Source: Naegleria gruberi (lineage: Eukaryota). Taken from it: a stretch of 15,390 nucleotides of DNA. The stretch lies in NCBI GenBank assembly GCA_000004985.1, contig GG738966.1; one strand, written 5' to 3'. The position numbers and the translations under genes were made by a program. Under the pieces are notes generated by a model that saw only the letters and a list, made by a program, of their open reading frames with translations, made no database searches and was not told where the DNA came from. Below, piece by piece: positions 519 through 15,384 of this stretch (position 1 is the stretch's first letter; each line of letters begins with the position of its first letter).

Positions 519-2024
519 TTATTGTTCATTGTTGGTGTAGTACTTTGAATCGTACTCGGCAAAGTATTTCGGAAGAGGCTTCTTACTTGTTGGTATACCC
601 AGAAAGTTACTGTATGCCTTTAACAAAGGGTCTTTGTTTCTGTTCTCAACTGCTGATTCACGTGTACTTTGGAAGTATTTGTTGTATGTGACTAATTGAT
701 CAATAAGGGATGTTTTGAATTCTGGTGGACCTCGGATCTCATTATTAGAAATGATATTCATCTTCAGTAATTCAAAAAATACAAATGCAAATACTTGTCC
801 AGTATCTTTCTGCCTAATTTTGTCCCTTTGTTGAGGAGTTAAGTTAAATGTTTTACCATTTAATTCAATAGAAAAGCTTTCTTCAGTATTGGTGAGTACT
901 GAATGAAATTCTTCTGGAATGCGATCATTTCCAACCAATTTACAAGTTTCCATAATAGCATATTCTGGTTTTACATATTTGGAGTGGGAAACAATATCGT
1001 TAAATATTTGACTGAGATATTTGGATTTTTGATTTGATTCTACAGTTTTAAATTCAAGTCTCATTTTCAAGTCTTCTATTTCCTTGCTTTTCTTGGCTGA
1101 TTCTGAAGCAAAATGGTTTTGTAGACGATTGGATTCTGCTAATTTCTTCTCGAGTTCTGCATTTTCTTTCTTCAAAAAATGATTCTCTGAATTATCTTTT
1201 TCTGTATCCTTGTCATCATTAATTGGAGGAACAGCAAATAGATAATTTGTTGAGGTAACATTTTCCTCCTCTTCATCCATCTCTTCAGGGTCCAAACCAA
1301 GTGGTTTAGCATATAGATTACTCAATGGGAAATCATAATATTTTCCCTCTTGATATTTTTCAATCATTTCAGTTGAGCAACAAGTATCACAATCTATTTT
1401 CCAATGTAAAAATTTACAATTACACTCTTGCTTTGTAAACGAAATCAATTCAACAATTGCAACCTTAAGAGGCTCTGTTTCATGTTTGAGATAATATCTA
1501 TCATGTTCATGCAACTTATTATATGGAACATGAGCTACATTTTGAAGATTATTCACTTTACGAAATTGTAATTCTCTGTCAAAATCAAAAAATGGCTTTA
1601 GCACTTTCTGTATTTGTTCAATTTTTTCAATTAAAAACTGAAACAATTCTTCAACAGGGAGAGAGTAGGAGACAGTGGGAAAGTTTTCAAATTCACTGTT
1701 CTTTCTTTGTAAATGTTTCAAGTATTCATTGTAGAGAATAAGGATGTATACTAATTGATGCTTCTTAAATAATTGTTTGATAATGGATTTATCTGCTCGT
1801 ACTGTGATTTCTTGTTTTCTCAAATTCTCAATAAAGTTTGTCAATTTACCCACTTCAGGAGGTCCCTTGTTAATGGTTGCTGGTAATAATTCAACAGAAT
1901 ACCATTGCATTCCGACTGGCTCAAGTGGTTTCATTCTTAACTCAGACTCATCTTTCTTCTTCTTTGAGGAAGAAGAACTGTTGCTTGCACTTTTACGCTT
2001 TTGGGTTTGTTGACTAGTAGACAT
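519..2024 (-). CDS. Intact 501-aa protein of unknown function. The N-terminus is Ser/Lys-rich and NLS-like. A conserved-looking N-domain is followed by a Cys cluster (CNCKFLHWKIDCDTCC), an acidic stretch, a short coiled-coil and a C-terminal globular-looking domain. The motif GPPE[VF] appears in both the N- and C-terminal domains.
   Basis: This is a 1,506-nt uninterrupted ORF. Its start sits in a yeast-like context (aaaacaaaATGtct). Composition is non-random, with domain-like hydrophobic periodicity flanked by low-complexity linkers. I could not assign a family from memory. Confidence 0.7.
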   Translation of the reverse strand: MSTSQQTQKRKSASNSSSSSKKKKDESELRMKPLEPVGMQWYSVELLPATINKGPPEVGKLTNFIENLRKQEITVRADKSIIKQLFKKHQLVYILILYNEYLKHLQRKNSEFENFPTVSYSLPVEELFQFLIEKIEQIQKVLKPFFDFDRELQFRKVNNLQNVAHVPYNKLHEHDRYYLKHETEPLKVAIVELISFTKQECNCKFLHWKIDCDTCCSTEMIEKYQEGKYYDFPLSNLYAKPLGLDPEEMDEEEENVTSTNYLFAVPPINDDKDTEKDNSENHFLKKENAELEKKLAESNRLQNHFASESAKKSKEIEDLKMRLEFKTVESNQKSKYLSQIFNDIVSHSKYVKPEYAIMETCKLVGNDRIPEEFHSVLTNTEESFSIELNGKTFNLTPQQRDKIRQKDTGQVFAFVFFELLKMNIISNNEIRGPPEFKTSLIDQLVTYNKYFQSTRESAVENRNKDPLLKAYSNFLGIPTSKKPLPKYFAEYDSKYYTNNEQ

Positions 2025-2171
2025 TTTGTTTTTGATTCAGTTGTGGTTATTTTCCAAGTTTGATATATAGATAGTTGTTGTTCAATTTATTTAAAACAGA
2101 TTTGATCTTTTTTTAGATTGTTGTAAAAGAGTTGATTGAACCAGTCATTATTAAAAACTAATCCAAAAAAA
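2025..2171. promoter_or_regulatory. Short (about 147 bp) divergent promoter region between the start codons at 2024 (-) and 2172 (+). It contains the TATA-like element 'tatatagata' at 2064-2073 and an A-tract before 2172.
   Basis: It sits between two divergently oriented ATGs. There is a TATA-like motif, and A-rich -1..-8 contexts at both starts. Confidence 0.35.
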
Positions 2172-3159
2172 ATGGTTAAACATGCTTTTGCAAAATTTGC
2201 AACAGACTTTGAAAGGATTTCTGGTTTAAAATTTGTAAGTAATGGGAACCAATCACCAACCTTTCAAATGCCTGATTCTACTTCAAACACTACCCCTACA
2301 TCCAACAAAAGAAAAAGACAAATCTATGATTCCGAAATTTCTCCTGATGATAACAATTATTCAACATCAATACAATCTAAACAATACCATATTGGAGGTG
2401 ATGATACTTTTTCTTTTGCATTAAATATTGATAATGATTTGAATTCAATAACAACTTTAACATCACCAACACCCCTAGAACCTCATCAAATACAATCAGA
2501 AATATCTCCTATTAATAGTAATTCAACATCACTCAATTATCATCCTTTGAATGTTAAACCTGTTCATTTTACATCTCCAATAATTCAAAATAATAACCTT
2601 CTTTCCAAGCAATTATTTAATACATCATCAATGACAACCTATGAGTCAGTTATGGAAATATTATCATTTATTGTGGAAGCAAAGTTAAACAAAACTCAAT
2701 CACAAAGTTTTTTAAATCTACTTCACAAGTTATTACCTCCTTGTAATCTTCCAAATAAGATTTATGATTTGATGGATATGGTTACAGATATTGAGGATAA
2801 GTACTTCAAAGTTTACTTTTGTGAAGAATGTGAATCAGTTTCAAAACATTCTCAAACAATTTGTAAATGTGGTGAAATATTTGATATTAACAAATTCTTT
2901 TATATGATTGATTTTGATAAGGAATTATCTCTTAAATTTAATACACTTTCTTACTATGAGGCAACCAAATATTATTCTCATGAATATTTGAGAAAGAAGA
3001 AATCTCATGATATTATGCAAGAAATTTATGATGGGTCTACGTATCAAAAACAGATAAGTGCTTTTACAAGAATTCATAATAGTGAAGAAATTAATGTTTC
3101 CTATATTATTAACAATGATGGTGTTGCTGCTCATAAATCTAGTTCCAAATCCCCAGAGG
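2172..3159 (+). CDS. 5' part of a gene truncated by gap 1. About 230 aa of Ser/Thr/Asn-rich low complexity (with a KRKRQ NLS-like motif) lead into a region resembling the N-terminal zinc-finger/DG segment of Tnp2/Transposase_21 (CACTA/EnSpm-like) transposases. The gene is transposase-like or transposase-derived.
   Basis: The ORF is open from 2136, and the better start context is ATG 2172 (aaaaaaaATGg). It carries YFCEECESVSKHSQTICKCGEIF, which matches the Tnp2 pattern C-x2-C-x(about 10)-C-x-C-G. It also carries ...EIYDGSTYQKQISAFTRIHNSEEINVSYIINNDGVAAHKSSSKS, which matches the Tnp2 pattern ...D..W..F.......NV.LGL.TDGFNPF...SSS. The match is motif-level recall, not a database search. Confidence 0.5.
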
Positions 3160-5061
3160 NNNNNNNNNNNNNNNNNNNNNNNNNNNNNNNNNNNNNNNNN
3201 NNNNNNNNNNNNNNNNNNNNNNNNNNNNNNNNNNNNNNNNNNNNNNNNNNNNNNNNNNNNNNNNNNNNNNNNNNNNNNNNNNNNNNNNNNNNNNNNNNNN
3301 NNNNNNNNNNNNNNNNNNNNNNNNNNNNNNNNNNNNNNNNNNNNNNNNNNNNNNNNNNNNNNNNNNNNNNNNNNNNNNNNNNNNNNNNNNNNNNNNNNNN
3401 NNNNNNNNNNNNNNNNNNNNNNNNNNNNNNNNNNNNNNNNNNNNNNNNNNNNNNNNNNNNNNNNNNNNNNNNNNNNNNNNNNNNNNNNNNNNNNNNNNNN
3501 NNNNNNNNNNNNNNNNNNNNNNNNNNNNNNNNNNNNNNNNNNNNNNNNNNNNNNNNNNNNNNNNNNNNNNNNNNNNNNNNNNNNNNNNNNNNNNNNNNNN
3601 NNNNNNNNNNNNNNNNNNNNNNNNNNNNNNNNNNNNNNNNNNNNNNNNNNNNNNNNNNNNNNNNNNNNNNNNNNNNNNNNNNNNNNNNNNNNNNNNNNNN
3701 NNNNNNNNNNNNNNNNNNNNNNNNNNNNNNNNNNNNNNNNNNNNNNNNNNNNNNNNNNNNNNNNNNNNNNNNNNNNNNNNNNNNNNNNNNNNNNNNNNNN
3801 NNNNNNNNNNNNNNNNNNNNNNNNNNNNNNNNNNNNNNNNNNNNNNNNNNNNNNNNNNNNNNNNNNNNNNNNNNNNNNNNNNNNNNNNNNNNNNNNNNNN
3901 NNNNNNNNNNNNNNNNNNNNNNNNNNNNNNNNNNNNNNNNNNNNNNNNNNNNNNNNNNNNNNNNNNNNNNNNNNNNNNNNNNNNNNNNNNNNNNNNNNNN
4001 NNNNNNNNNNNNNNNNNNNNNNNNNNNNNNNNNNNNNNNNNNNNNNNNNNNNNNNNNNNNNNNNNNNNNNNNNNNNNNNNNNNNNNNNNNNNNNNNNNNN
4101 NNNNNNNNNNNNNNNNNNNNNNNNNNNNNNNNNNNNNNNNNNNNNNNNNNNNNNNNNNNNNNNNNNNNNNNNNNNNNNNNNNNNNNNNNNNNNNNNNNNN
4201 NNNNNNNNNNNNNNNNNNNNNNNNNNNNNNNNNNNNNNNNNNNNNNNNNNNNNNNNNNNNNNNNNNNNNNNNNNNNNNNNNNNNNNNNNNNNNNNNNNNN
4301 NNNNNNNNNNNNNNNNNNNNNNNNNNNNNNNNNNNNNNNNNNNNNNNNNNNNNNNNNNNNNNNNNNNNNNNNNNNNNNNNNNNNNNNNNNNNNNNNNNNN
4401 NNNNNNNNNNNNNNNNNNNNNNNNNNNNNNNNNNNNNNNNNNNNNNNNNNNNNNNNNNNNNNNNNNNNNNNNNNNNNNNNNNNNNNNNNNNNNNNNNNNN
4501 NNNNNNNNNNNNNNNNNNNNNNNNNNNNNNNNNNNNNNNNNNNNNNNNNNNNNNNNNNNNNNNNNNNNNNNNNNNNNNNNNNNNNNNNNNNNNNNNNNNN
4601 NNNNNNNNNNNNNNNNNNNNNNNNNNNNNNNNNNNNNNNNNNNNNNNNNNNNNNNNNNNNNNNNNNNNNNNNNNNNNNNNNNNNNNNNNNNNNNNNNNNN
4701 NNNNNNNNNNNNNNNNNNNNNNNNNNNNNNNNNNNNNNNNNNNNNNNNNNNNNNNNNNNNNNNNNNNNNNNNNNNNNNNNNNNNNNNNNNNNNNNNNNNN
4801 NNNNNNNNNNNNNNNNNNNNNNNNNNNNNNNNNNNNNNNNNNNNNNNNNNNNNNNNNNNNNNNNNNNNNNNNNNNNNNNNNNNNNNNNNNNNNNNNNNNN
4901 NNNNNNNNNNNNNNNNNNNNNNNNNNNNNNNNNNNNNNNNNNNNNNNNNNNNNNNNNNNNNNNNNNNNNNNNNNNNNNNNNNNNNNNNNNNNNNNNNNNN
5001 NNNNNNNNNNNNNNNNNNNNNNNNNNNNNNNNNNNNNNNNNNNNNNNNNNNNNNNNNNNNN
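3160..5061. other. Assembly gap 1 (1,902 N).
   Basis: Run of n characters. It hides the 3' part of the transposase-like gene and the 5' part of MAD1. Confidence 0.99.
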
Positions 5062-7744
5062 TCATCAACAAGTCTTAATGAATCTGTCAAGAATGTTCAA
5101 GGAACAAATGATGAAAATTTCGAAAATTATGTGCATGAAACTTTCGGAACAAATTCAAATAAGAATAATCAATCTATTGTGAATAGAAAACCAGCAATTA
5201 GTGTATTCGAGGATGAAAATATTGAAAAATCTACCATTGAGGAACAATATTTATTTGGTGCTGAGGATGAAGAACCATCGATGGAAACTAATGTAAATAG
5301 AAACTTTGAGAAAAGACCTTCTCAACAATCCAACAATCAATTTTCTTCTCCTTTGAAAAAGAGAAAATTAGCTTCACAACAATTAATTTCTAATGCTGGT
5401 CATACGGAAGTTGAGGATGAGGAAGAAGATTTGGCCAATTGTTCACTTGTCATTTCACCACCTCCTTTTGATGAAGAGGAAACATCCTCTGCTGCCAATA
5501 ACATGCTCTTTGGAAATGATGAAGAAAATGTGAGTGGACCAATATTGGAAGCAGGTCTCTACACTGGACGATCCAGGGATAGAAAGAGTAGAATTAAAAG
5601 TAGTTACTATGAGCCAGGATCACCACTCAATACTGGCCTTGAGAATAATCCTTCAATGATCATTTCGAGTTCACCACTCTTGAAATATACAGTACCATCG
5701 ACGGAGAGTGCCAGCAACAACAACATGCTAAATGATAGTATTACCAATAGAAGCTCTATTCTCAATGAGAGTCTCAGGGAGAGGGACGACATTATCGATC
5801 AATTGAATAATGAAGCTGAGGGAGAGAGAAGAAAACTCAAAGAATACAAGCTTCTCATCGAAAAACTTCAATCAGAGAATGCTCACCTCAAGCAACAAAA
5901 CTCTTCAATCAAAAAGAAGAATGAGGAAATACTGATAGAAACAGAAAAGGAAAATAACACTAGGGAACTTGAAATTCAATCTTTGAAAGAGAAAATTGCC
6001 GAACAACAAACCACTATTAACTTACAAAATCTTTCCAAGACTCAAAAAGAATCTAAATTTACAAGAAATTGAAAGTAAAATATCTGGAATCAACAAGACT
6101 GTAGAGACTTTGAAAAGTGATATTGTACAAAAGGACATTACCATAGAAACTCTCAATAGTCAAATTGAATCAATGAACAAACAATTGGAGGAAGCATCAA
6201 CTACCAATTCTGAACTAATGACCGTCTATCACTCTCAAAAACATGAATTTAATTTATTAAGCCATGAATATGAAATACTAACATTCAAGACTTCACAATA
6301 TGATTCAAAGATTCAAGAACTTGACCAATTACAAGATGAAATCAAGACACTCAAAGCAGAGCTAAATGAAAGAAATGAGGACAAGAAAAAGATACGAATC
6401 TTGGAAGCGGAATTGCAAAAGGCCAGTGAATCTCTCCAATCACAAGAAGTTCTCAAGGAAGCCATCAAGGACTTTGAATCTGAGTTGACCAAGTTGGAAG
6501 TTCTTCGAATTGAAAATAGTTCACTCGAGTCCAAGTTGTACAATACTGAATCACTTTTAAAGAGCTGGGAAAGTGCCTTCCCTAATAATACTCCATCGGA
6601 TGTAAACTACAATATCAAGTTACAAGCCAAGAAAATAACTCGCCTCGAAGAAACCATTCAAGAAGTGAATCAAGAAAAGTTTGACATTGCCAAGCATGTG
6701 GAACGTTTAACTGTGGAGTTGGAATCAAGGGAGACAGAATGTGCCGAGCTTCGAAATGAAAACAAGCAACTCGAAGAGAAACTGGCCAGCACTGAAGTAA
6801 AGCTCTTCGCTGCCAAGAACCAATTGGAGAGCTCTATGAAATTTGCTCACATCAACGACAAGGAAGAGGCTATGAATGCTGCTGCCGATGAGGAAACTAA
6901 GGAAAAGATAGGCCATCACATGAGTAGAATAGCTGCCCTTGAAAAGATCATTGAGGAGAAGGATGTAAATACTCGTGAACTATTTGAAAGATTGGATATT
7001 TTGCAAAAACAAATAATTGACAAACAGACTCTTATCGAAAACTTTGAACATGAAGTGGAGAAGGTTAATGCTCAAAAGTTGGAAGTTCAAACCAAATCAG
7101 ATGAATTACAGGTACGAGTTGAAAAATTGGAAAAGAACAGAGACGCTCTCGAATTGGAAATTGCAAACTATGAAAAGAGACTAGGAAAGGGAGAATACAA
7201 TAAGGAGAAATTCAAAATTCTTCACATGAAAATCAACCCAGAAATTGAGGCCAAAAAATCCAGTGACAATGACATTGAACGATTAAAGACAGAAAATAAG
7301 CTCCTCACCGAAGAAATTACCTCCCTCAAAGAGCAATTACAAATCTCCTCCAACGATAATGCCTCCAGCTCAATTAACAATCAACGAGAAATTGAAAAGC
7401 TCAAAGAAGAAAATGCAGATGCCCAACGCAGAATTACCAAGCTCAAAGAAGTTTTCCAAAAGAGAATTAACGAATTTAGAAAATCAATCTATCTCTTATT
7501 TGGTTTCAGAGTTGATGTCATTGAAAATAATCGATTCAGATTGAGCAGTATGTATGCAGAATCTCCAGAAGATTATCTCATCTTTGAAAGTGATGGAAAT
7601 GCCATGAAACTCTTAAACTCTGAATTTGCTTGTTCACTAGAGGAAAAATCCATGAGATTTTTAAAGAATTTCAGATCCATTCCTGGATTTTTATGTTCCA
7701 TTACTTTGGATTTATTCAACAAGCAAACCGTTTTCACCCAATAA
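5062..7744 (+). CDS. MAD1: Spindle assembly checkpoint protein MAD1. The 5' end is missing in gap 1. Frame 1 (5062-6072) and frame 2 (5996-7744) are two halves of one gene separated by a single-nucleotide frame disruption between about 6030 and 6072. The stop is TAA at 7742-7744.
   Basis: The C-terminal domain RINEFRKSIYLLFGFRVDVIENNRFRLSSMYAESPEDYLIFESDGN...SIPGFLCSITLDLFNKQTVF aligns with the Mad1 C-terminal/RLK region (compare S. cerevisiae ...FIDVVNSLLGFKLEF...QLPCFLATITLRLWEQRQ and human ...SIPAFLSSLTLELFSRQTVA). It is preceded by about 580 aa of heptad-rich coiled coil that continues seamlessly across the frame junction. Frame 1 has no stop from 5062 to 6072. Confidence 0.85.
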
Positions 7745-7821: not shown

Positions 7822-8993
7822 ATGAATATTACACAACCTAACTTTATCACCACGACATTGCAACAATTGTTGGAAATGGGATTTACGCACGAACAAGCCA
7901 CACAAATGATCATTGTTCTCGAACAAGAGAAAACAAAGCAATTGGAAATTAATTCAAAGAAGAGAAACATGGATGAAAATTCAGAATTTGATTCATTCGG
8001 AAAAAAGAGAAAACAAGATGAAGAATTGTTTCCTGATGAAATTATAGTTGAATTGTATCATATCTTTCTAATTTTGAAGGATTCCGATTAATGTTTGTCA
8101 GTAAACAATTTATGAAAGCTTGCCGATTAATTAGAAAATGGTTGATTACTTCGGATTGCACTACCGAATTATTAAGAATGTTTTGTGAATCGTCATTTGC
8201 TGAACAAATTCACTCTTTGGTGATTGATGTTCCAATCACTTGGGAATTATTCAATCAAATCAAACTTAATTTTACAAATTTGAAAGAGTTGAATCTGTAC
8301 GAAGTAGCATTTCTCGATTTTTCAAATTATTTTGAAAGCAACCATTTAGAATCTTTAATAGTTCGAAACTGTAATAACATTAATCTCAATTCATTGCATT
8401 TATTCAATTTACAACATATAGAATGTCCCCTAAAGTCATCCAGTGGTGTCAGTAATATCATTCATTCGAATACTTTCAGCTTAAAAAGTATTACACTGCA
8501 TGGGAATGGAAATGTGATTAAGGAGGCTCACTTGTTTAAAAATCTTCCAGCATTGGAATATCTTAAACTTGTCAGATTTAACATTCCAGTTTCACAATTT
8601 AAGGAAATATTGAATTGTAAAGGTTTAAAATCACTACATTTACAATTCATTACTAACACGAGTGCCATTCTTTTGGACCAAAAACATTCACAGTTGTTCA
8701 ATTTGCCAACATTAGAAAAATTAGAAAGTTATCGAGTAGATCTTGACCTTATGCAGATTCTTATCCAATCAATGATTGCTCCTCTATTGAAATATTTATC
8801 AATTGGGGTAAATGGTGTCTTTAATTTTACACTTTCAAAAGCCTTTAGAGAAAATACATCTCTATCAAATATTGAAAACTTGTCTATTGAGAATCAGATA
8901 GAAAATATGGAAATAATTGAAAATATTTGTGAAAAAATATCCAAGTTACCTTTAAACAAATTTGCCTTTTCTGGAAATTCACTGTGTTTCTCA
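7822..8993 (+). CDS. F-box/leucine-rich-repeat protein, an SCF substrate-adaptor-like protein, with a UBA-like N-terminus. It is a single gene interrupted by a -1 frame change at 8088-8091 (ORFs 7822-8091 and 8091-gap). The 3' end is lost in gap 2.
   Basis: The N-terminus LQQLLEMGFTHEQATQMIIVL matches the UBA pattern ..L.eMGF..e.a..AL. The F-box consensus LPdEIL..If..L...dL....VsK.W is reconstituted only by joining the end of ORF1 (FPDEIIVELYHIFLILKDSD) to the start of ORF2 (LMFVSKQFMKACRLIRKWL). Downstream there are at least 8 LRR-like L..L.L..C..I.D repeats (NLKELNLYEV, LESLIVRNCNNINL, LKSITLHGNGNVI, LEYLKLVRFNI, LKSLHLQFITN and others). Confidence 0.6.
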
Positions 8994-11900
8994 NNNNNNN
9001 NNNNNNNNNNNNNNNNNNNNNNNNNNNNNNNNNNNNNNNNNNNNNNNNNNNNNNNNNNNNNNNNNNNNNNNNNNNNNNNNNNNNNNNNNNNNNNNNNNNN
9101 NNNNNNNNNNNNNNNNNNNNNNNNNNNNNNNNNNNNNNNNNNNNNNNNNNNNNNNNNNNNNNNNNNNNNNNNNNNNNNNNNNNNNNNNNNNNNNNNNNNN
9201 NNNNNNNNNNNNNNNNNNNNNNNNNNNNNNNNNNNNNNNNNNNNNNNNNNNNNNNNNNNNNNNNNNNNNNNNNNNNNNNNNNNNNNNNNNNNNNNNNNNN
9301 NNNNNNNNNNNNNNNNNNNNNNNNNNNNNNNNNNNNNNNNNNNNNNNNNNNNNNNNNNNNNNNNNNNNNNNNNNNNNNNNNNNNNNNNNNNNNNNNNNNN
9401 NNNNNNNNNNNNNNNNNNNNNNNNNNNNNNNNNNNNNNNNNNNNNNNNNNNNNNNNNNNNNNNNNNNNNNNNNNNNNNNNNNNNNNNNNNNNNNNNNNNN
9501 NNNNNNNNNNNNNNNNNNNNNNNNNNNNNNNNNNNNNNNNNNNNNNNNNNNNNNNNNNNNNNNNNNNNNNNNNNNNNNNNNNNNNNNNNNNNNNNNNNNN
9601 NNNNNNNNNNNNNNNNNNNNNNNNNNNNNNNNNNNNNNNNNNNNNNNNNNNNNNNNNNNNNNNNNNNNNNNNNNNNNNNNNNNNNNNNNNNNNNNNNNNN
9701 NNNNNNNNNNNNNNNNNNNNNNNNNNNNNNNNNNNNNNNNNNNNNNNNNNNNNNNNNNNNNNNNNNNNNNNNNNNNNNNNNNNNNNNNNNNNNNNNNNNN
9801 NNNNNNNNNNNNNNNNNNNNNNNNNNNNNNNNNNNNNNNNNNNNNNNNNNNNNNNNNNNNNNNNNNNNNNNNNNNNNNNNNNNNNNNNNNNNNNNNNNNN
9901 NNNNNNNNNNNNNNNNNNNNNNNNNNNNNNNNNNNNNNNNNNNNNNNNNNNNNNNNNNNNNNNNNNNNNNNNNNNNNNNNNNNNNNNNNNNNNNNNNNNN
10001 NNNNNNNNNNNNNNNNNNNNNNNNNNNNNNNNNNNNNNNNNNNNNNNNNNNNNNNNNNNNNNNNNNNNNNNNNNNNNNNNNNNNNNNNNNNNNNNNNNNN
10101 NNNNNNNNNNNNNNNNNNNNNNNNNNNNNNNNNNNNNNNNNNNNNNNNNNNNNNNNNNNNNNNNNNNNNNNNNNNNNNNNNNNNNNNNNNNNNNNNNNNN
10201 NNNNNNNNNNNNNNNNNNNNNNNNNNNNNNNNNNNNNNNNNNNNNNNNNNNNNNNNNNNNNNNNNNNNNNNNNNNNNNNNNNNNNNNNNNNNNNNNNNNN
10301 NNNNNNNNNNNNNNNNNNNNNNNNNNNNNNNNNNNNNNNNNNNNNNNNNNNNNNNNNNNNNNNNNNNNNNNNNNNNNNNNNNNNNNNNNNNNNNNNNNNN
10401 NNNNNNNNNNNNNNNNNNNNNNNNNNNNNNNNNNNNNNNNNNNNNNNNNNNNNNNNNNNNNNNNNNNNNNNNNNNNNNNNNNNNNNNNNNNNNNNNNNNN
10501 NNNNNNNNNNNNNNNNNNNNNNNNNNNNNNNNNNNNNNNNNNNNNNNNNNNNNNNNNNNNNNNNNNNNNNNNNNNNNNNNNNNNNNNNNNNNNNNNNNNN
10601 NNNNNNNNNNNNNNNNNNNNNNNNNNNNNNNNNNNNNNNNNNNNNNNNNNNNNNNNNNNNNNNNNNNNNNNNNNNNNNNNNNNNNNNNNNNNNNNNNNNN
10701 NNNNNNNNNNNNNNNNNNNNNNNNNNNNNNNNNNNNNNNNNNNNNNNNNNNNNNNNNNNNNNNNNNNNNNNNNNNNNNNNNNNNNNNNNNNNNNNNNNNN
10801 NNNNNNNNNNNNNNNNNNNNNNNNNNNNNNNNNNNNNNNNNNNNNNNNNNNNNNNNNNNNNNNNNNNNNNNNNNNNNNNNNNNNNNNNNNNNNNNNNNNN
10901 NNNNNNNNNNNNNNNNNNNNNNNNNNNNNNNNNNNNNNNNNNNNNNNNNNNNNNNNNNNNNNNNNNNNNNNNNNNNNNNNNNNNNNNNNNNNNNNNNNNN
11001 NNNNNNNNNNNNNNNNNNNNNNNNNNNNNNNNNNNNNNNNNNNNNNNNNNNNNNNNNNNNNNNNNNNNNNNNNNNNNNNNNNNNNNNNNNNNNNNNNNNN
11101 NNNNNNNNNNNNNNNNNNNNNNNNNNNNNNNNNNNNNNNNNNNNNNNNNNNNNNNNNNNNNNNNNNNNNNNNNNNNNNNNNNNNNNNNNNNNNNNNNNNN
11201 NNNNNNNNNNNNNNNNNNNNNNNNNNNNNNNNNNNNNNNNNNNNNNNNNNNNNNNNNNNNNNNNNNNNNNNNNNNNNNNNNNNNNNNNNNNNNNNNNNNN
11301 NNNNNNNNNNNNNNNNNNNNNNNNNNNNNNNNNNNNNNNNNNNNNNNNNNNNNNNNNNNNNNNNNNNNNNNNNNNNNNNNNNNNNNNNNNNNNNNNNNNN
11401 NNNNNNNNNNNNNNNNNNNNNNNNNNNNNNNNNNNNNNNNNNNNNNNNNNNNNNNNNNNNNNNNNNNNNNNNNNNNNNNNNNNNNNNNNNNNNNNNNNNN
11501 NNNNNNNNNNNNNNNNNNNNNNNNNNNNNNNNNNNNNNNNNNNNNNNNNNNNNNNNNNNNNNNNNNNNNNNNNNNNNNNNNNNNNNNNNNNNNNNNNNNN
11601 NNNNNNNNNNNNNNNNNNNNNNNNNNNNNNNNNNNNNNNNNNNNNNNNNNNNNNNNNNNNNNNNNNNNNNNNNNNNNNNNNNNNNNNNNNNNNNNNNNNN
11701 NNNNNNNNNNNNNNNNNNNNNNNNNNNNNNNNNNNNNNNNNNNNNNNNNNNNNNNNNNNNNNNNNNNNNNNNNNNNNNNNNNNNNNNNNNNNNNNNNNNN
11801 NNNNNNNNNNNNNNNNNNNNNNNNNNNNNNNNNNNNNNNNNNNNNNNNNNNNNNNNNNNNNNNNNNNNNNNNNNNNNNNNNNNNNNNNNNNNNNNNNNNN

Positions 11901-13498
11901 NNNNNNNNNNNNNNNNNNNNNNNNNNNNNNNNNNNNNNNNNNNNNNNNNNNNNNNNNNNNNNNNNNNNNNNNNNNNNNNNNNNNNNNNNNNNNNNNNNNN
12001 NNNNNNNNNNNNNNNNNNNNNNNNNNNNNNNNNNNNNNNNNNNNNNNNNNNNNNNNNNNNNNNNNNNNNNNNNNNNNNNNNNNNNNNNNNNNNNNNNNNN
12101 NNNNNNNNNNNNNNNNNNNNNNNNNNNNNNNNNNNNNNNNNNNNNNNNNNNNNNNNNNNNNNNNNNNNNNNNNNNNNNNNNNNNNNNNNNNNNNNNNNNN
12201 NNNNNNNNNNNNNNNNNNNNNNNNNNNNNNNNNNNNNNNNNNNNNNNNNNNNNNNNNNNNNNNNNNNNNNNNNNNNNNNNNNNNNNNNNNNNNNNNNNNN
12301 NNNNNNNNNNNNNNNNNNNNNNNNNNNNNNNNNNNNNNNNNNNNNNNNNNNNNNNNNNNNNNNNNNNNNNNNNNNNNNNNNNNNNNNNNNNNNNNNNNNN
12401 NNNNNNNNNNNNNNNNNNNNNNNNNNNNNNNNNNNNNNNNNNNNNNNNNNNNNNNNNNNNNNNNNNNNNNNNNNNNNNNNNNNNNNNNNNNNNNNNNNNN
12501 NNNNNNNNNNNNNNNNNNNNNNNNNNNNNNNNNNNNNNNNNNNNNNNNNNNNNNNNNNNNNNNNNNNNNNNNNNNNNNNNNNNNNNNNNNNNNNNNNNNN
12601 NNNNNNNNNNNNNNNNNNNNNNNNNNNNNNNNNNNNNNNNNNNNNNNNNNNNNNNNNNNNNNNNNNNNNNNNNNNNNNNNNNNNNNNNNNNNNNNNNNNN
12701 NNNNNNNNNNNNNNNNNNNNNNNNNNNNNNNNNNNNNNNNNNNNNNNNNNNNNNNNNNNNNNNNNNNNNNNNNNNNNNNNNNNNNNNNNNNNNNNNNNNN
12801 NNNNNNNNNNNNNNNNNNNNNNNNNNNNNNNNNNNNNNNNNNNNNNNNNNNNNNNNNNNNNNNNNNNNNNNNNNNNNNNNNNNNNNNNNNNNNNNNNNNN
12901 NNNNNNNNNNNNNNNNNNNNNNNNNNNNNNNNNNNNNNNNNNNNNNNNNNNNNNNNNNNNNNNNNNNNNNNNNNNNNNNNNNNNNNNNNNNNNNNNNNNN
13001 NNNNNNNNNNNNNNNNNNNNNNNNNNNNNNNNNNNNNNNNNNNNNNNNNNNNNNNNNNNNNNNNNNNNNNNNNNNNNNNNNNNNNNNNNNNNNNNNNNNN
13101 NNNNNNNNNNNNNNNNNNNNNNNNNNNNNNNNNNNNNNNNNNNNNNNNNNNNNNNNNNNNNNNNNNNNNNNNNNNNNNNNNNNNNNNNNNNNNNNNNNNN
13201 NNNNNNNNNNNNNNNNNNNNNNNNNNNNNNNNNNNNNNNNNNNNNNNNNNNNNNNNNNNNNNNNNNNNNNNNNNNNNNNNNNNNNNNNNNNNNNNNNNNN
13301 NNNNNNNNNNNNNNNNNNNNNNNNNNNNNNNNNNNNNNNNNNNNNNNNNNNNNNNNNNNNNNNNNNNNNNNNNNNNNNNNNNNNNNNNNNNNNNNNNNNN
13401 NNNNNNNNNNNNNNNNNNNNNNNNNNNNNNNNNNNNNNNNNNNNNNNNNNNNNNNNNNNNNNNNNNNNNNNNNNNNNNNNNNNNNNNNNNNNNNNNNN
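8994..13498. other. Assembly gap 2 (4,505 N).
   Basis: Run of n characters. It hides the 3' part of the F-box/LRR gene and the 3' part of the Rho-family GTPase gene. Confidence 0.99.
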
Positions 13499-13686
13499 AG
13501 CAGAGTAGTTATCAAAGACAGTTGGAACGTATCTATTAGAAACTTGTTAATAAACTATAATTTTCTATTCGAAACCTACTCTTCAGGGAAGTGATTCTTA
13601 GCATAGACGTACAAGAGACATGTCTTACCGACAGCACCATCACCAACGATAACGCATTTAATATGTTGAACGGTTGTCTTGCTCAT
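13499..13686 (-). CDS. Rho-family small GTPase (Rac/Cdc42/Rho5-like), 5' part. Exon 1 is 13686..13580 (ATG at 13686-13684, 35 codons plus 2 nt). A 47-nt intron occupies 13579..13533. Exon 2 runs 13532..13499 and continues into gap 2.
   Basis: The minus-strand translation is [35 protein letters not shown]|[12 protein letters not shown]. The P-loop [11 protein letters not shown] and switch-[10 protein letters not shown] are diagnostic of Rho/Rac/Cdc42, and DNYSA is Rac-like. The spliced junction restores the frame exactly, whereas the unspliced read hits TAG after FPEE. Confidence 0.8.
13533..13579 (-). other. Spliceosomal intron (47 nt) in the Rho-family GTPase gene: gtaggtttcgaatagaaaattatagtttattaacaagtttctaatag.
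   Basis: The donor is GTAGGT. TATTAAC, a one-mismatch variant of the TACTAAC branch site, lies 14 nt from the 3' AG. It is the only acceptor that yields the conserved [10 protein letters not shown] continuation; the other three upstream AGs give immediate stops. Confidence 0.7.
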
Positions 13687-14415: not shown

Positions 14416-15384
14416 ATGGTGTTCCTGCAGTTGATGAAGGAAGCAATGTNNNNNNNNNNNNNNNNNNNNNNNNNNNNNNNNNNNNNNNNNNNNNNNNNNT
14501 GCTCAAATTCAAGCAAAGCACAACACTTTCAAAATTCAAAGAGAGAATCTATACCCACTAATAGTAAGGATTCAAATTCGCCGAAATTAACAACATCCTT
14601 ATCGAATGAAACATTCTATTCAGAGAACCGCAGTGAAATAAGTCCTCCTGATCCATTTCAGTCTTCACAAAAGGGAGTTCCCTCCAAACTGTCCTCAACC
14701 AATTCTAATCAACAAGAAAAAGATTCTTCACCACTTAGTAAGGAAACTTTTACTCCAGTAGTTGCTTTTAGTCCAATTCTTACTGATATTGAAGATGATT
14801 CAAAGGCAATTTACATGCATCCATATCATGGAAGCTTGCCTCCCCTTAGTCCAAGCAATTCAACATGCTCTTCAAAGACCTCTTCAAGCAATTGCAGCAC
14901 TCTTTCATCTCCTAAAGAGAAGATCACATCCCCATCTCATTCATCATCGTACATTACTGCATCTGCTACATACTCATCTTCACCATCACCATCATCAACA
15001 ACATCAGGAGTTGCAACTAGCTCTTCTCCAACTACACTCATCCAACCATCGTCAACAGCATCTGTTAATGCATCTACATCTAACACAACACCAGAAACAA
15101 TAACATCCACCCCAATAATCTCAAAAGAAACACCCAAACCAACCATTGAGATCAGTAAAGTGTCGAATACTGCTCCGACTACATCTTCGCCAATTTCCAA
15201 AGATAAATTAAAGAGAGCTAGACCTCTTTCTGCAACCAAAAATCCACTGGTTCAATCTCTGACATTGGAAAAATTTAAAGACGATTTAGCTATTGGAAGA
15301 AAATCGAAATCAAATATCATTTCAGATAATTCAGTCAAAGTACCTTACAGCTCTTCACTAACTAGATCAGGGAAGAACCATTAA
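14416..15384 (+). CDS. Ser/Thr/Pro/Asn-rich low-complexity protein, possibly a regulatory or cell-surface protein. The candidate start ATG is at 14416 (aaaaaaaatATGg). The body is open in frame 1 from 14500 to TAA at 15382-15384 and is interrupted by the 50-N gap 14450-14499, so true length and phase across the gap are unknown.
   Basis: A continuous 295-codon open frame follows the gap, with strong Ser/Thr bias (SSSNCSTLSSPKEKITSPSHSSSYITASATYSSSPSPSSTTSG...). The first in-frame ATG after the gap is far downstream (about 14816), so the start must lie in or before the gap. Confidence 0.5.
   Translation: MVFLQLMKEAMXXXXXXXXXXXXXXXXXCSNSSKAQHFQNSKRESIPTNSKDSNSPKLTTSLSNETFYSENRSEISPPDPFQSSQKGVPSKLSSTNSNQQEKDSSPLSKETFTPVVAFSPILTDIEDDSKAIYMHPYHGSLPPLSPSNSTCSSKTSSSNCSTLSSPKEKITSPSHSSSYITASATYSSSPSPSSTTSGVATSSSPTTLIQPSSTASVNASTSNTTPETITSTPIISKETPKPTIEISKVSNTAPTTSSPISKDKLKRARPLSATKNPLVQSLTLEKFKDDLAIGRKSKSNIISDNSVKVPYSSSLTRSGKNH
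14450..14499. other. Assembly gap 3, exactly 50 N, a conventional placeholder for a gap of unknown size.
   Basis: Run of 50 n characters. This is not a multiple of 3, so the apparent in-frame continuity of the flanking ORF in the six-frame track is coincidental. Confidence 0.95.

What the first reader, a model, noticed from the sequence alone, without database searches (positions are those of the whole stretch)
8040..8100. F-box motif split across a -1 frame junction with overlapping TAATG
The F-box consensus LPdEIL..If..L..kdL.rl..VsK.W is present only if the last residues of ORF 7822-8091 (FPDEIIVELYHIFLILKDSD, frame 1, stop TAA 8089-8091) are joined to the first residues of ORF 8091-gap (LMFVSKQFMKACRLIRKW, frame 3, ATG 8091-8093). 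A domain spanning the junction means the two ORFs are one gene with a single-nucleotide deletion or -1 shift within about 8077-8090. There is no homopolymer and no slippery heptamer here, unlike the MAD1 case. Together with the MAD1 +1 shift 2 kb upstream this makes two frame disruptions in two adjacent conserved genes.
Basis: partly seen in the sequence, partly recalled or inferred. Interest (0 to 1): 0.5.

Follow-up and report, generated by a model that had tools for sequence, protein, structure and literature searches.

The report
Frameshifted F-box/LRR gene, draft Naegleria scaffold

Summary
Joining frame 1 'LFPDEIIVE' (ends 8052) to frame 3 'IVSYLSNFEGFRLMFVSKQF…' (opens at 8052, after TGA 8049-8051) gives Pfam F-box PF00646 at 27.0 bits, E = 4e-6, above the curated cut-off of 20.5. 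The score falls steadily as the junction is moved 3' and disappears before 8077. One nucleotide is therefore missing at about 8050-8058. The TAATG overlap is incidental: its ATG is an internal Met of the F-box. An intron, a -1 ribosomal frameshift and two separate genes are all disfavoured. The gene reads UBA-like, F-box, LRR, and is cut off by the gap at 8994. No orthologue was found, so relatives could not be compared. MAD1, 2 kb upstream, has its own 1-nt indel in an A5 run that Willaertia and N. fowleri do not share. Two independent indels in a low-quality scaffold point to consensus errors, or less likely recent lab-strain mutations. Interest is low.

The parts
7822..8052 (+). Frame-1 part of the gene. 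ATG at 7822 is the first ATG after an in-frame stop ten codons upstream. Contains a UBA-like stretch, a KKRK-rich linker and the first F-box helix.
   Evidence: translation, upstream stop; Pfam UBA
7852..7917 (+). UBA-like motif TLQQLLEMGFTHEQATQMI, below the Pfam threshold.
   Evidence: Pfam UBA PF00627 at 18.1 bits, E=0.0025, cut-off 22.4. Weak PDB match to the HUWE1 UBA domain 2ekk, E=0.85.
8029..8141 (+). F-box domain, residues 70-107 of the repaired protein. FPDEIIVE is in frame 1 (8029-8052). IVSYLSNFEGFRLMFVSKQFMKACRLIRKW is in frame 3 (8052-8141).
   Evidence: PF00646 at 27.0 bits, E=3.8e-6, above the 20.5 cut-off; PF12937 at 22.4 bits
8050..8058 (+). Frame junction, where one nucleotide is missing relative to an intact ORF. 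The best fit is an A lost from GAA|ATT (GTTGAATTG instead of GTTGAAATTG).
   Evidence: The frame-3 TGA at 8049-8051 sets the 5' limit. The Pfam score gradient sets the 3' limit. Variants with two bases removed instead score only 12.7-17.0 bits.
8089..8093 (+). TAATG. The TAA is an out-of-frame stop reached only because of the upstream indel. The ATG is the internal Met of ...FRLMFVSK... The overlap is incidental.
8142..8993 (+). Leucine-rich-repeat region in frame 3, cut off by the scaffold gap. Together with the F-box part, frame 3 is open for 314 codons (8052-8993); the chance expectation for that is about 9e-12.
   Evidence: Full HMMER search finds only LRR proteins, best E=2.5e-9. The AF2 model has a beta/alpha solenoid pattern (pLDDT 52) and Foldseek returns LRR folds, including FBXL17, SKP2 and D3. 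Open-frame probability.
8994..13498 (.). Run of N (scaffold gap) that hides the 3' end of the gene.
6044..6048 (+). A5 run in MAD1 where the neighbouring gene changes frame (one base too many). Given as context for the quality of the scaffold.

Best explanation
Positions 7822 to 8993 and beyond are a single, unannotated Naegleria gruberi gene for an SCF-type substrate adaptor. It reads: UBA-like motif, basic linker, F-box, leucine-rich repeats. In the deposited sequence the reading frame is broken by one missing nucleotide at about 8050-8058, inside the first F-box helix. The most likely event is GAAATT read as GAATT. The most likely cause is a base-calling or consensus error in a low-coverage draft scaffold assembled from Sanger reads. 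The real gene would then be intact, with no recoding. Shown: the F-box spans the frame change at that position, the downstream frame is coding, and recoding signals are absent. Inferred: the missing base is an error and not a real mutation, and the protein binds Skp1.
For: The F-box passes the Pfam cut-off only when the frames are joined at 8050-8058, and the score falls steadily away from that site. The spacing from P to the conserved L and to VSK equals the consensus exactly, so nothing is missing at the protein level. Frame 3 then stays open for 314 codons in roughly 30% GC DNA, with a chance probability of about 9e-12. It also encodes LRRs, so there is no sign of decay after the break. The window is an entire 15,390-bp N. 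gruberi NEG-M scaffold: protein P0017/XP_002668723.1 is 100% identical and sits on a contig of exactly 15,390 bp. The scaffold has three N runs covering 42% of it. The genome was sequenced by Sanger (PMC9928731). The adjacent MAD1 gene has an independent indel of the opposite sign in an A5 run. Removing one A makes it collinear in a single frame with Willaertia MAD1. N. fowleri is unbroken at that site. Neither broken gene has a protein model in the databases, whereas the intact ORF at 519-2024 does.
Against: No reads, ESTs or second assembly could be examined, so an error cannot be told apart from a real mutation. The site has no homopolymer longer than 2, where indel errors are most common. 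Sanger consensus is usually accurate. The link between many gaps and low coverage is an inference. No orthologue exists to show what the intact sequence looks like.
Confidence: 0.68

Rival explanations
1. The one-base deletion is real. It would be either a recent inactivating mutation (a young pseudogene) or one allele of the polyploid, long-cultured NEG-M strain that happened to be the one assembled.
For: The sequence as deposited carries it. The gene is lineage-specific, with no detectable orthologue, so it may be dispensable. There is no long homopolymer at the site.
Against: There are no further lesions in 314 downstream codons. A second, independent indel sits in the conserved checkpoint gene MAD1 on the same small, gap-ridden scaffold. 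That is explained more simply by poor sequence quality than by two real knock-outs side by side.
Confidence: 0.22
2. Programmed -1 ribosomal frameshifting, or transcriptional slippage, joins the two frames in vivo.
For: The frame change is -1, and both frames are open over 8052-8091.
Against: There is no X XXY YYZ heptamer in phase between 8026 and 8091. The only such heptamer in this ORF, A AAA AAG at 8001-8007, lies upstream of the frame-3 stops that run up to 8049-8051, so it cannot deliver ribosomes into the F-box frame. The 80 nt downstream (8056-8135) fold no better than shuffles: -9.4 kcal/mol, z=+0.31. There is no homopolymer for polymerase slippage. The neighbouring MAD1 shift has the opposite sign and is not conserved in relatives.
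Confidence: 0.03
3. A 47-nt spliceosomal intron (8055-8101, GTATCA...TGTCAG) restores the frame, and the F-box resemblance is partly accidental.
For: It is the shortest of the 13 GT-AG candidates that restore an open frame. It is the same length as the confirmed 47-nt intron of the Rac-like gene in this window, and it contains TTTCTAAT and ATTAAT elements that resemble branch points.
Against: Splicing it would delete IVSYLSNFEGFRLMFVS, the core of an F-box that passes the Pfam cut-off. The spliced product gives no F-box hit. Its donor, GTATCA, lacks the GT at positions +5/+6 seen in the introns that could be inferred here and in relatives: GTAGGT, GTAAGT, GTACGT. Frame-restoring GT-AG pairs are common by chance in AT-rich DNA; 13 were found.
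Confidence: 0.04
4. These are two separate genes, a small UBA protein and an LRR protein starting at ATG 8091, with a true stop/start overlap.
For: Both ORFs exist as written, and TAATG overlaps are a known arrangement in prokaryotes.
Against: The organism is a eukaryote. The F-box needs residues from both ORFs, plus 13 frame-3 codons upstream of the ATG. The second gene would have no room for a promoter or 5' UTR.
Confidence: 0.02

Closest known systems
FBXL-class F-box proteins (F-box followed by leucine-rich repeats; e.g. human SKP2 and FBXL2, yeast Grr1)
   Same: An N-terminal F-box of about 40 residues with LPxEI(L/I)...I.SYL...VSK.(W/F), followed directly by an LRR solenoid. The Pfam F-box score is above the cut-off after repair. 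LRR is supported by sequence and fold.
   Different: No orthology to any named FBXL protein; only generic LRR similarity. There is an extra UBA-like motif upstream, below threshold. The conserved Trp is replaced by Phe (VSKQF). The C-terminus is unknown because of the gap. The ORF is broken in the deposited sequence.
Single-base indel errors in draft eukaryotic assemblies that split genes into adjacent ORFs
   Same: A one-base frame change with intact coding sequence on both sides and no recoding signals. A second indel lies in the neighbouring gene. The scaffold is small and full of gaps, and the broken genes have no gene models. The N. fowleri nanopore assembly shows the same kind of artefact in its MAD1, at different sites.
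   Different: Reads were not available, so the error is inferred and not shown. The site is not a long homopolymer.
Programmed -1 ribosomal frameshifting (e.g. E. coli dnaX A AAA AAG, retroviral gag-pol)
   Same: The direction of the shift, and an overlap zone in which both frames are open.
   Different: No slippery heptamer at the junction, no downstream structure, and no conservation.

Membership tests
F-box domain (Pfam PF00646 / PF12937) | Profile match at or above the curated gathering score | tested here: met
After repair at 8052: PF00646 at 27.0 bits (cut-off 20.5), E=3.8e-6; whole protein 23.4 bits. PF12937 at 22.4 bits is just under its 24.3 cut-off. The frame-3 piece alone scores 15.1 bits.
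F-box domain (Pfam PF00646 / PF12937) | Encoded as one continuous reading frame | tested here: not met
   In the deposited sequence the domain changes from frame 1 to frame 3 at 8050-8058.
F-box domain (Pfam PF00646 / PF12937) | Binds Skp1 and assembles into an SCF ubiquitin ligase | not testable with these tools
   Needs biochemistry.
FBXL subclass (F-box + LRR) | Leucine-rich repeats C-terminal to the F-box | tested here: met
   HMMER hits only to LRR proteins, best E=2.5e-9. Pfam LRR_8 is weak, E=0.03-0.04. PDB LRIG1 LRR, E=0.013. Foldseek returns LRR folds with E down to 1.4e-4 from a low-confidence model, pLDDT 52.
UBA domain (PF00627) | Profile match at or above the gathering score | tested here: inconclusive
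   18.1 bits against a cut-off of 22.4, E=0.0025. HUWE1 UBA match, E=0.85.
Programmed -1 ribosomal frameshift site | Slippery heptamer X XXY YYZ at the shift site | tested here: not met
   None in phase between 8026 and 8091. The A AAA AAG at 8001-8007 is separated from the frame-3 ORF by stops.
Programmed -1 ribosomal frameshift site | Stable stimulatory RNA structure 5-9 nt downstream | tested here: not met
   8056-8135: MFE -9.4 kcal/mol, z=+0.31; 113 of 200 shuffles fold at least as well.
Programmed -1 ribosomal frameshift site | The frame change is conserved in relatives | not testable with these tools
   No orthologue found.
Spliceosomal intron | GT-AG boundaries that restore the frame and leave a sensible protein | tested here: not met
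   Thirteen frame-restoring GT-AG pairs exist, but all of them remove part of the F-box. The best, 8055-8101, has a poor donor (GTATCA).

The most novel reading that the evidence does not exclude
The deposited sequence is correct. Naegleria would then express both this F-box/LRR protein (-1) and MAD1 (+1) from frame-disrupted genes, by a recoding or RNA-level correction mechanism that needs no canonical slippery site or stimulatory structure.
Probability: 0.02. Interest if true: 0.7.

Novelty: new member of a known kind. Interest (0 to 1): 0.1.

Why it matters
It matters little beyond annotation. It adds one unannotated F-box/LRR gene, possibly with an unusual UBA-like N-terminus, to the N. 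gruberi gene set. It also flags this scaffold as unreliable at single-base level. The practical lesson concerns method. When a domain is split across frames, the break should be located by scoring the domain profile across all possible junctions, not by assuming it lies at the stop/start overlap. The neighbouring MAD1 case is more useful. The unannotated, frame-broken N. gruberi MAD1 carries a MAD2-interaction-like motif, so it could bear on the published suggestion that N. gruberi MAD1 lacks this motif; I did not check which sequence that claim was based on.

Tried and rejected
1. This nearly led me to dismiss the F-box, until all junction positions were scanned.

2. Intron hypothesis. I enumerated 13 frame-restoring GT-AG pairs and inferred Naegleria and Willaertia intron donors from gene spans and product lengths. 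It was rejected because every candidate deletes F-box core residues.

3. Orthologue and synteny test.
- The N. fowleri and Willaertia MAD1 loci were fetched, but the downstream genes differ: an RRM gene and a synaptobrevin gene.
- No homologue of the F-box/LRR protein turned up in the word-indexed search.
- Full HMMER returned only four generic LRR hits.
- The PDB sequence search returned nothing relevant, and metagenome contigs returned nothing.

4. Exact look-ups of the window's proteins on contigs returned nothing.

Only the frame-3 piece could be modelled. The result was poor (pLDDT 52) and shows only a generic LRR fold.

6. My 10-sequence F-box HMM ranks the 8052 join first, but with a small margin (8.4 against 7.3 bits). 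It served only to choose decoys for the Pfam control.

7. The A AAA AAG heptamer at 8001-8007 was considered and rejected as the shift site.

8. The N. gruberi genome paper is not held in the library.

Full report
**What the window is**

The 501-aa ORF at 519-2024 (minus strand) is 100% identical to N. gruberi XP_002668723.1 / NAEGRDRAFT_54639. That protein's only contig is 15,390 bp long, the same length as the window. The window is therefore a complete small scaffold of the N. gruberi NEG-M draft genome. That genome was sequenced by Sanger (PMC9928731). Three N runs (3160-5061, 8994-13498, 14450-14499) make up 42% of the scaffold. The MAD1 homologue at 5062-7744 is 61% identical to N. fowleri MAD1 and 43% identical to Willaertia MAD1.

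**Checking the observation**

A variant repaired at the T4 run also gives none.

I then scanned every possible junction with a small HMM built from ten F-box sequences. I had recalled those sequences from memory and confirmed each against Pfam. The best junction lies much further 5'. Frame 3 is open from 8052, directly after TGA 8049-8051, and reads IVSYLSNFEGFRLMFVSKQFMKACRLIRKW. This is the 'IlsyLdpkdLlrlrlVsKrW' part of the F-box consensus. Frame 1 supplies LFPDEIIVE, ending at 8052.

Pfam results for this join:
- The joined peptide scores 27.0 bits on PF00646, E=3.8e-6, against a curated cut-off of 20.5.
- It scores 22.4 bits on PF12937.
- The repaired 391-aa protein scores 23.4 bits on PF00646.
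- The frame-3 piece alone already matches profile positions 12-41 (15.1 bits, E=0.022).

Moving the assumed junction 3' lowers the score step by step:

| Junction position | PF00646 score (bits) |
|---|---|
| 8052 | 27.0 |
| 8056 | 24.8 |
| 8055 | 22.6 |
| 8054 | 21.0 |
| 8058 | 20.6 |
| 8061 | 18.5 |
| 8064 | 15.2 |
| 8067 | 13.0 |
| 8069 and beyond | no hit |

Removing two bases instead of adding one gives only 12.7-17.0 bits. So exactly one nucleotide is missing, between the frame-3 TGA (5' limit) and about 8058. The best-scoring repair turns GAATT into GAAATT.

As a control, I made -1 joins at every position of the window on both strands; 929 were free of stops. The 8052 join ranked first. 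None of nine high-ranking decoys (seven -1 joins and two in-frame windows) hit any F-box family in Pfam.

**What the gene is**

The ATG at 7822 follows an in-frame stop ten codons upstream. The gene has four parts:
- Residues 11-32 resemble a UBA domain. Pfam gives 18.1 bits, below the 22.4 cut-off, and there is a weak match to the HUWE1 UBA domain.
- A KKRK-rich linker follows.
- The F-box covers repaired residues 70-107 (8029-8141).
- Leucine-rich repeats follow the F-box.

The evidence for the repeats comes from four sources:
- A full HMMER search of 1.84 billion representatives finds only four proteins, three of which Pfam shows to carry leucine-rich repeats (best E=2.5e-9).
- The PDB sequence search finds the LRIG1 LRR domain.
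- A single-sequence AlphaFold model is poor (pLDDT 52) but shows a strand/helix solenoid.
- Foldseek matches that model to LRR folds, FBXL17, SKP2 and D3 among them.

Frame 3 stays open for 314 codons up to the gap. By base composition this has a chance probability of about 9e-12. The architecture is that of an FBXL-type SCF substrate adaptor. Skp1 binding is inferred and was not tested.

**How the frame break arose**

*Intron.* Thirteen GT-AG pairs would restore an open frame. The most attractive is 8055-8101. At 47 nt it is the same length as the Rac-like gene's intron at 13579-13533. However, it would delete the F-box core, and its donor, GTATCA, lacks the GT at +5/+6 seen in the introns I could infer. 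Rejected.

*Programmed -1 frameshift.* There is no X XXY YYZ heptamer in phase between 8026 and 8091. The A AAA AAG at 8001-8007 is cut off from the frame-3 ORF by stops up to 8049-8051. The downstream 80 nt fold no better than shuffles (z=+0.31). Rejected.

*Two genes.* This is excluded because the domain needs both ORFs, plus 13 frame-3 codons upstream of the ATG. The organism is also a eukaryote.

What remains is a one-base deletion, either an error or a real mutation. Four things favour an error:
- MAD1, 2 kb upstream, changes frame at an A5 run (6044-6048).
- Deleting one A from that run gives an 893-residue reading that aligns with Willaertia MAD1 in a single frame (residues 236-891).
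- The N. fowleri sequence is continuous across that site.
- Neither disrupted gene has a protein model in the databases, while the intact neighbour does.

Two independent indels of opposite sign in adjacent genes, on a small scaffold that is 42% gap, with no further decay in either gene, are most simply explained by poor consensus quality. A real recent mutation, or one allele of the polyploid lab strain, cannot be excluded without reads.

**Comparison with relatives**

The N. fowleri and Willaertia MAD1 loci are not syntenic downstream. No orthologue or paralogue of the F-box/LRR protein was found anywhere.

**Verdict**

The TAATG overlap is a red herring. The thing itself is an ordinary F-box/LRR gene, so far unannotated, carrying a one-base indel that is probably an assembly artefact. 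Interest is low.

Noticed in passing
window 5062-7744 (+); break at 6044-6048; motif at 7214-7240: N. gruberi MAD1 appears to have no protein model covering the part after the break, and it changes frame at an A5 run. Removing one A gives a reading collinear with Willaertia MAD1. It contains KILHMKINP, which to my knowledge resembles the MAD2-interaction motif of human MAD1. A review (PMC5949338) relays a claim that N. gruberi MAD1 lacks this motif and warns that annotated sequences may be partial. The indel and the gap could be relevant to that claim, but I did not check which sequence it was based on.
   Followed up: partly
L001 8158-10705 (N. fowleri GCA_008403515.1, VFQX01000040.1): N. fowleri MAD1 aligns in three different frames (8158-9216, 9240-9422, 9413-10705) and is annotated as two genes. 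These are probably indel errors in that assembly. The break sites differ from the one in N. gruberi.
   Followed up: partly
window 13499-13686 (-): A Rac/Cdc42-like GTPase gene ([25 protein letters not shown]...) with its ATG at 13686-13684. It has a 47-nt intron at 13579-13533 (GTAGGT...TTTCTAATAG). The rest of the gene is lost in the gap.
   Followed up: partly
window 7852-7917 (+): A UBA-like motif (LQQLLEMGFTHEQATQMI) lies upstream of the F-box. To my knowledge UBA plus F-box plus LRR is not a common architecture. The match is below the Pfam threshold.
   Followed up: partly
window 8001-8007 (+): An A AAA AAG heptamer, in phase with frame 1, inside the KKRK-rich linker (A6 run at 8001-8006). 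It cannot serve the junction because of downstream frame-3 stops. It is, however, another homopolymer where indel errors could occur.
   Followed up: yes
window 2136-3159 (+) and 14416-15384 (+): Two further long ORFs border the gaps: a Ser/Asn-rich protein with a Cys-rich stretch, and a Ser/Thr/Pro-rich ORF. They were not characterised.
   Followed up: no
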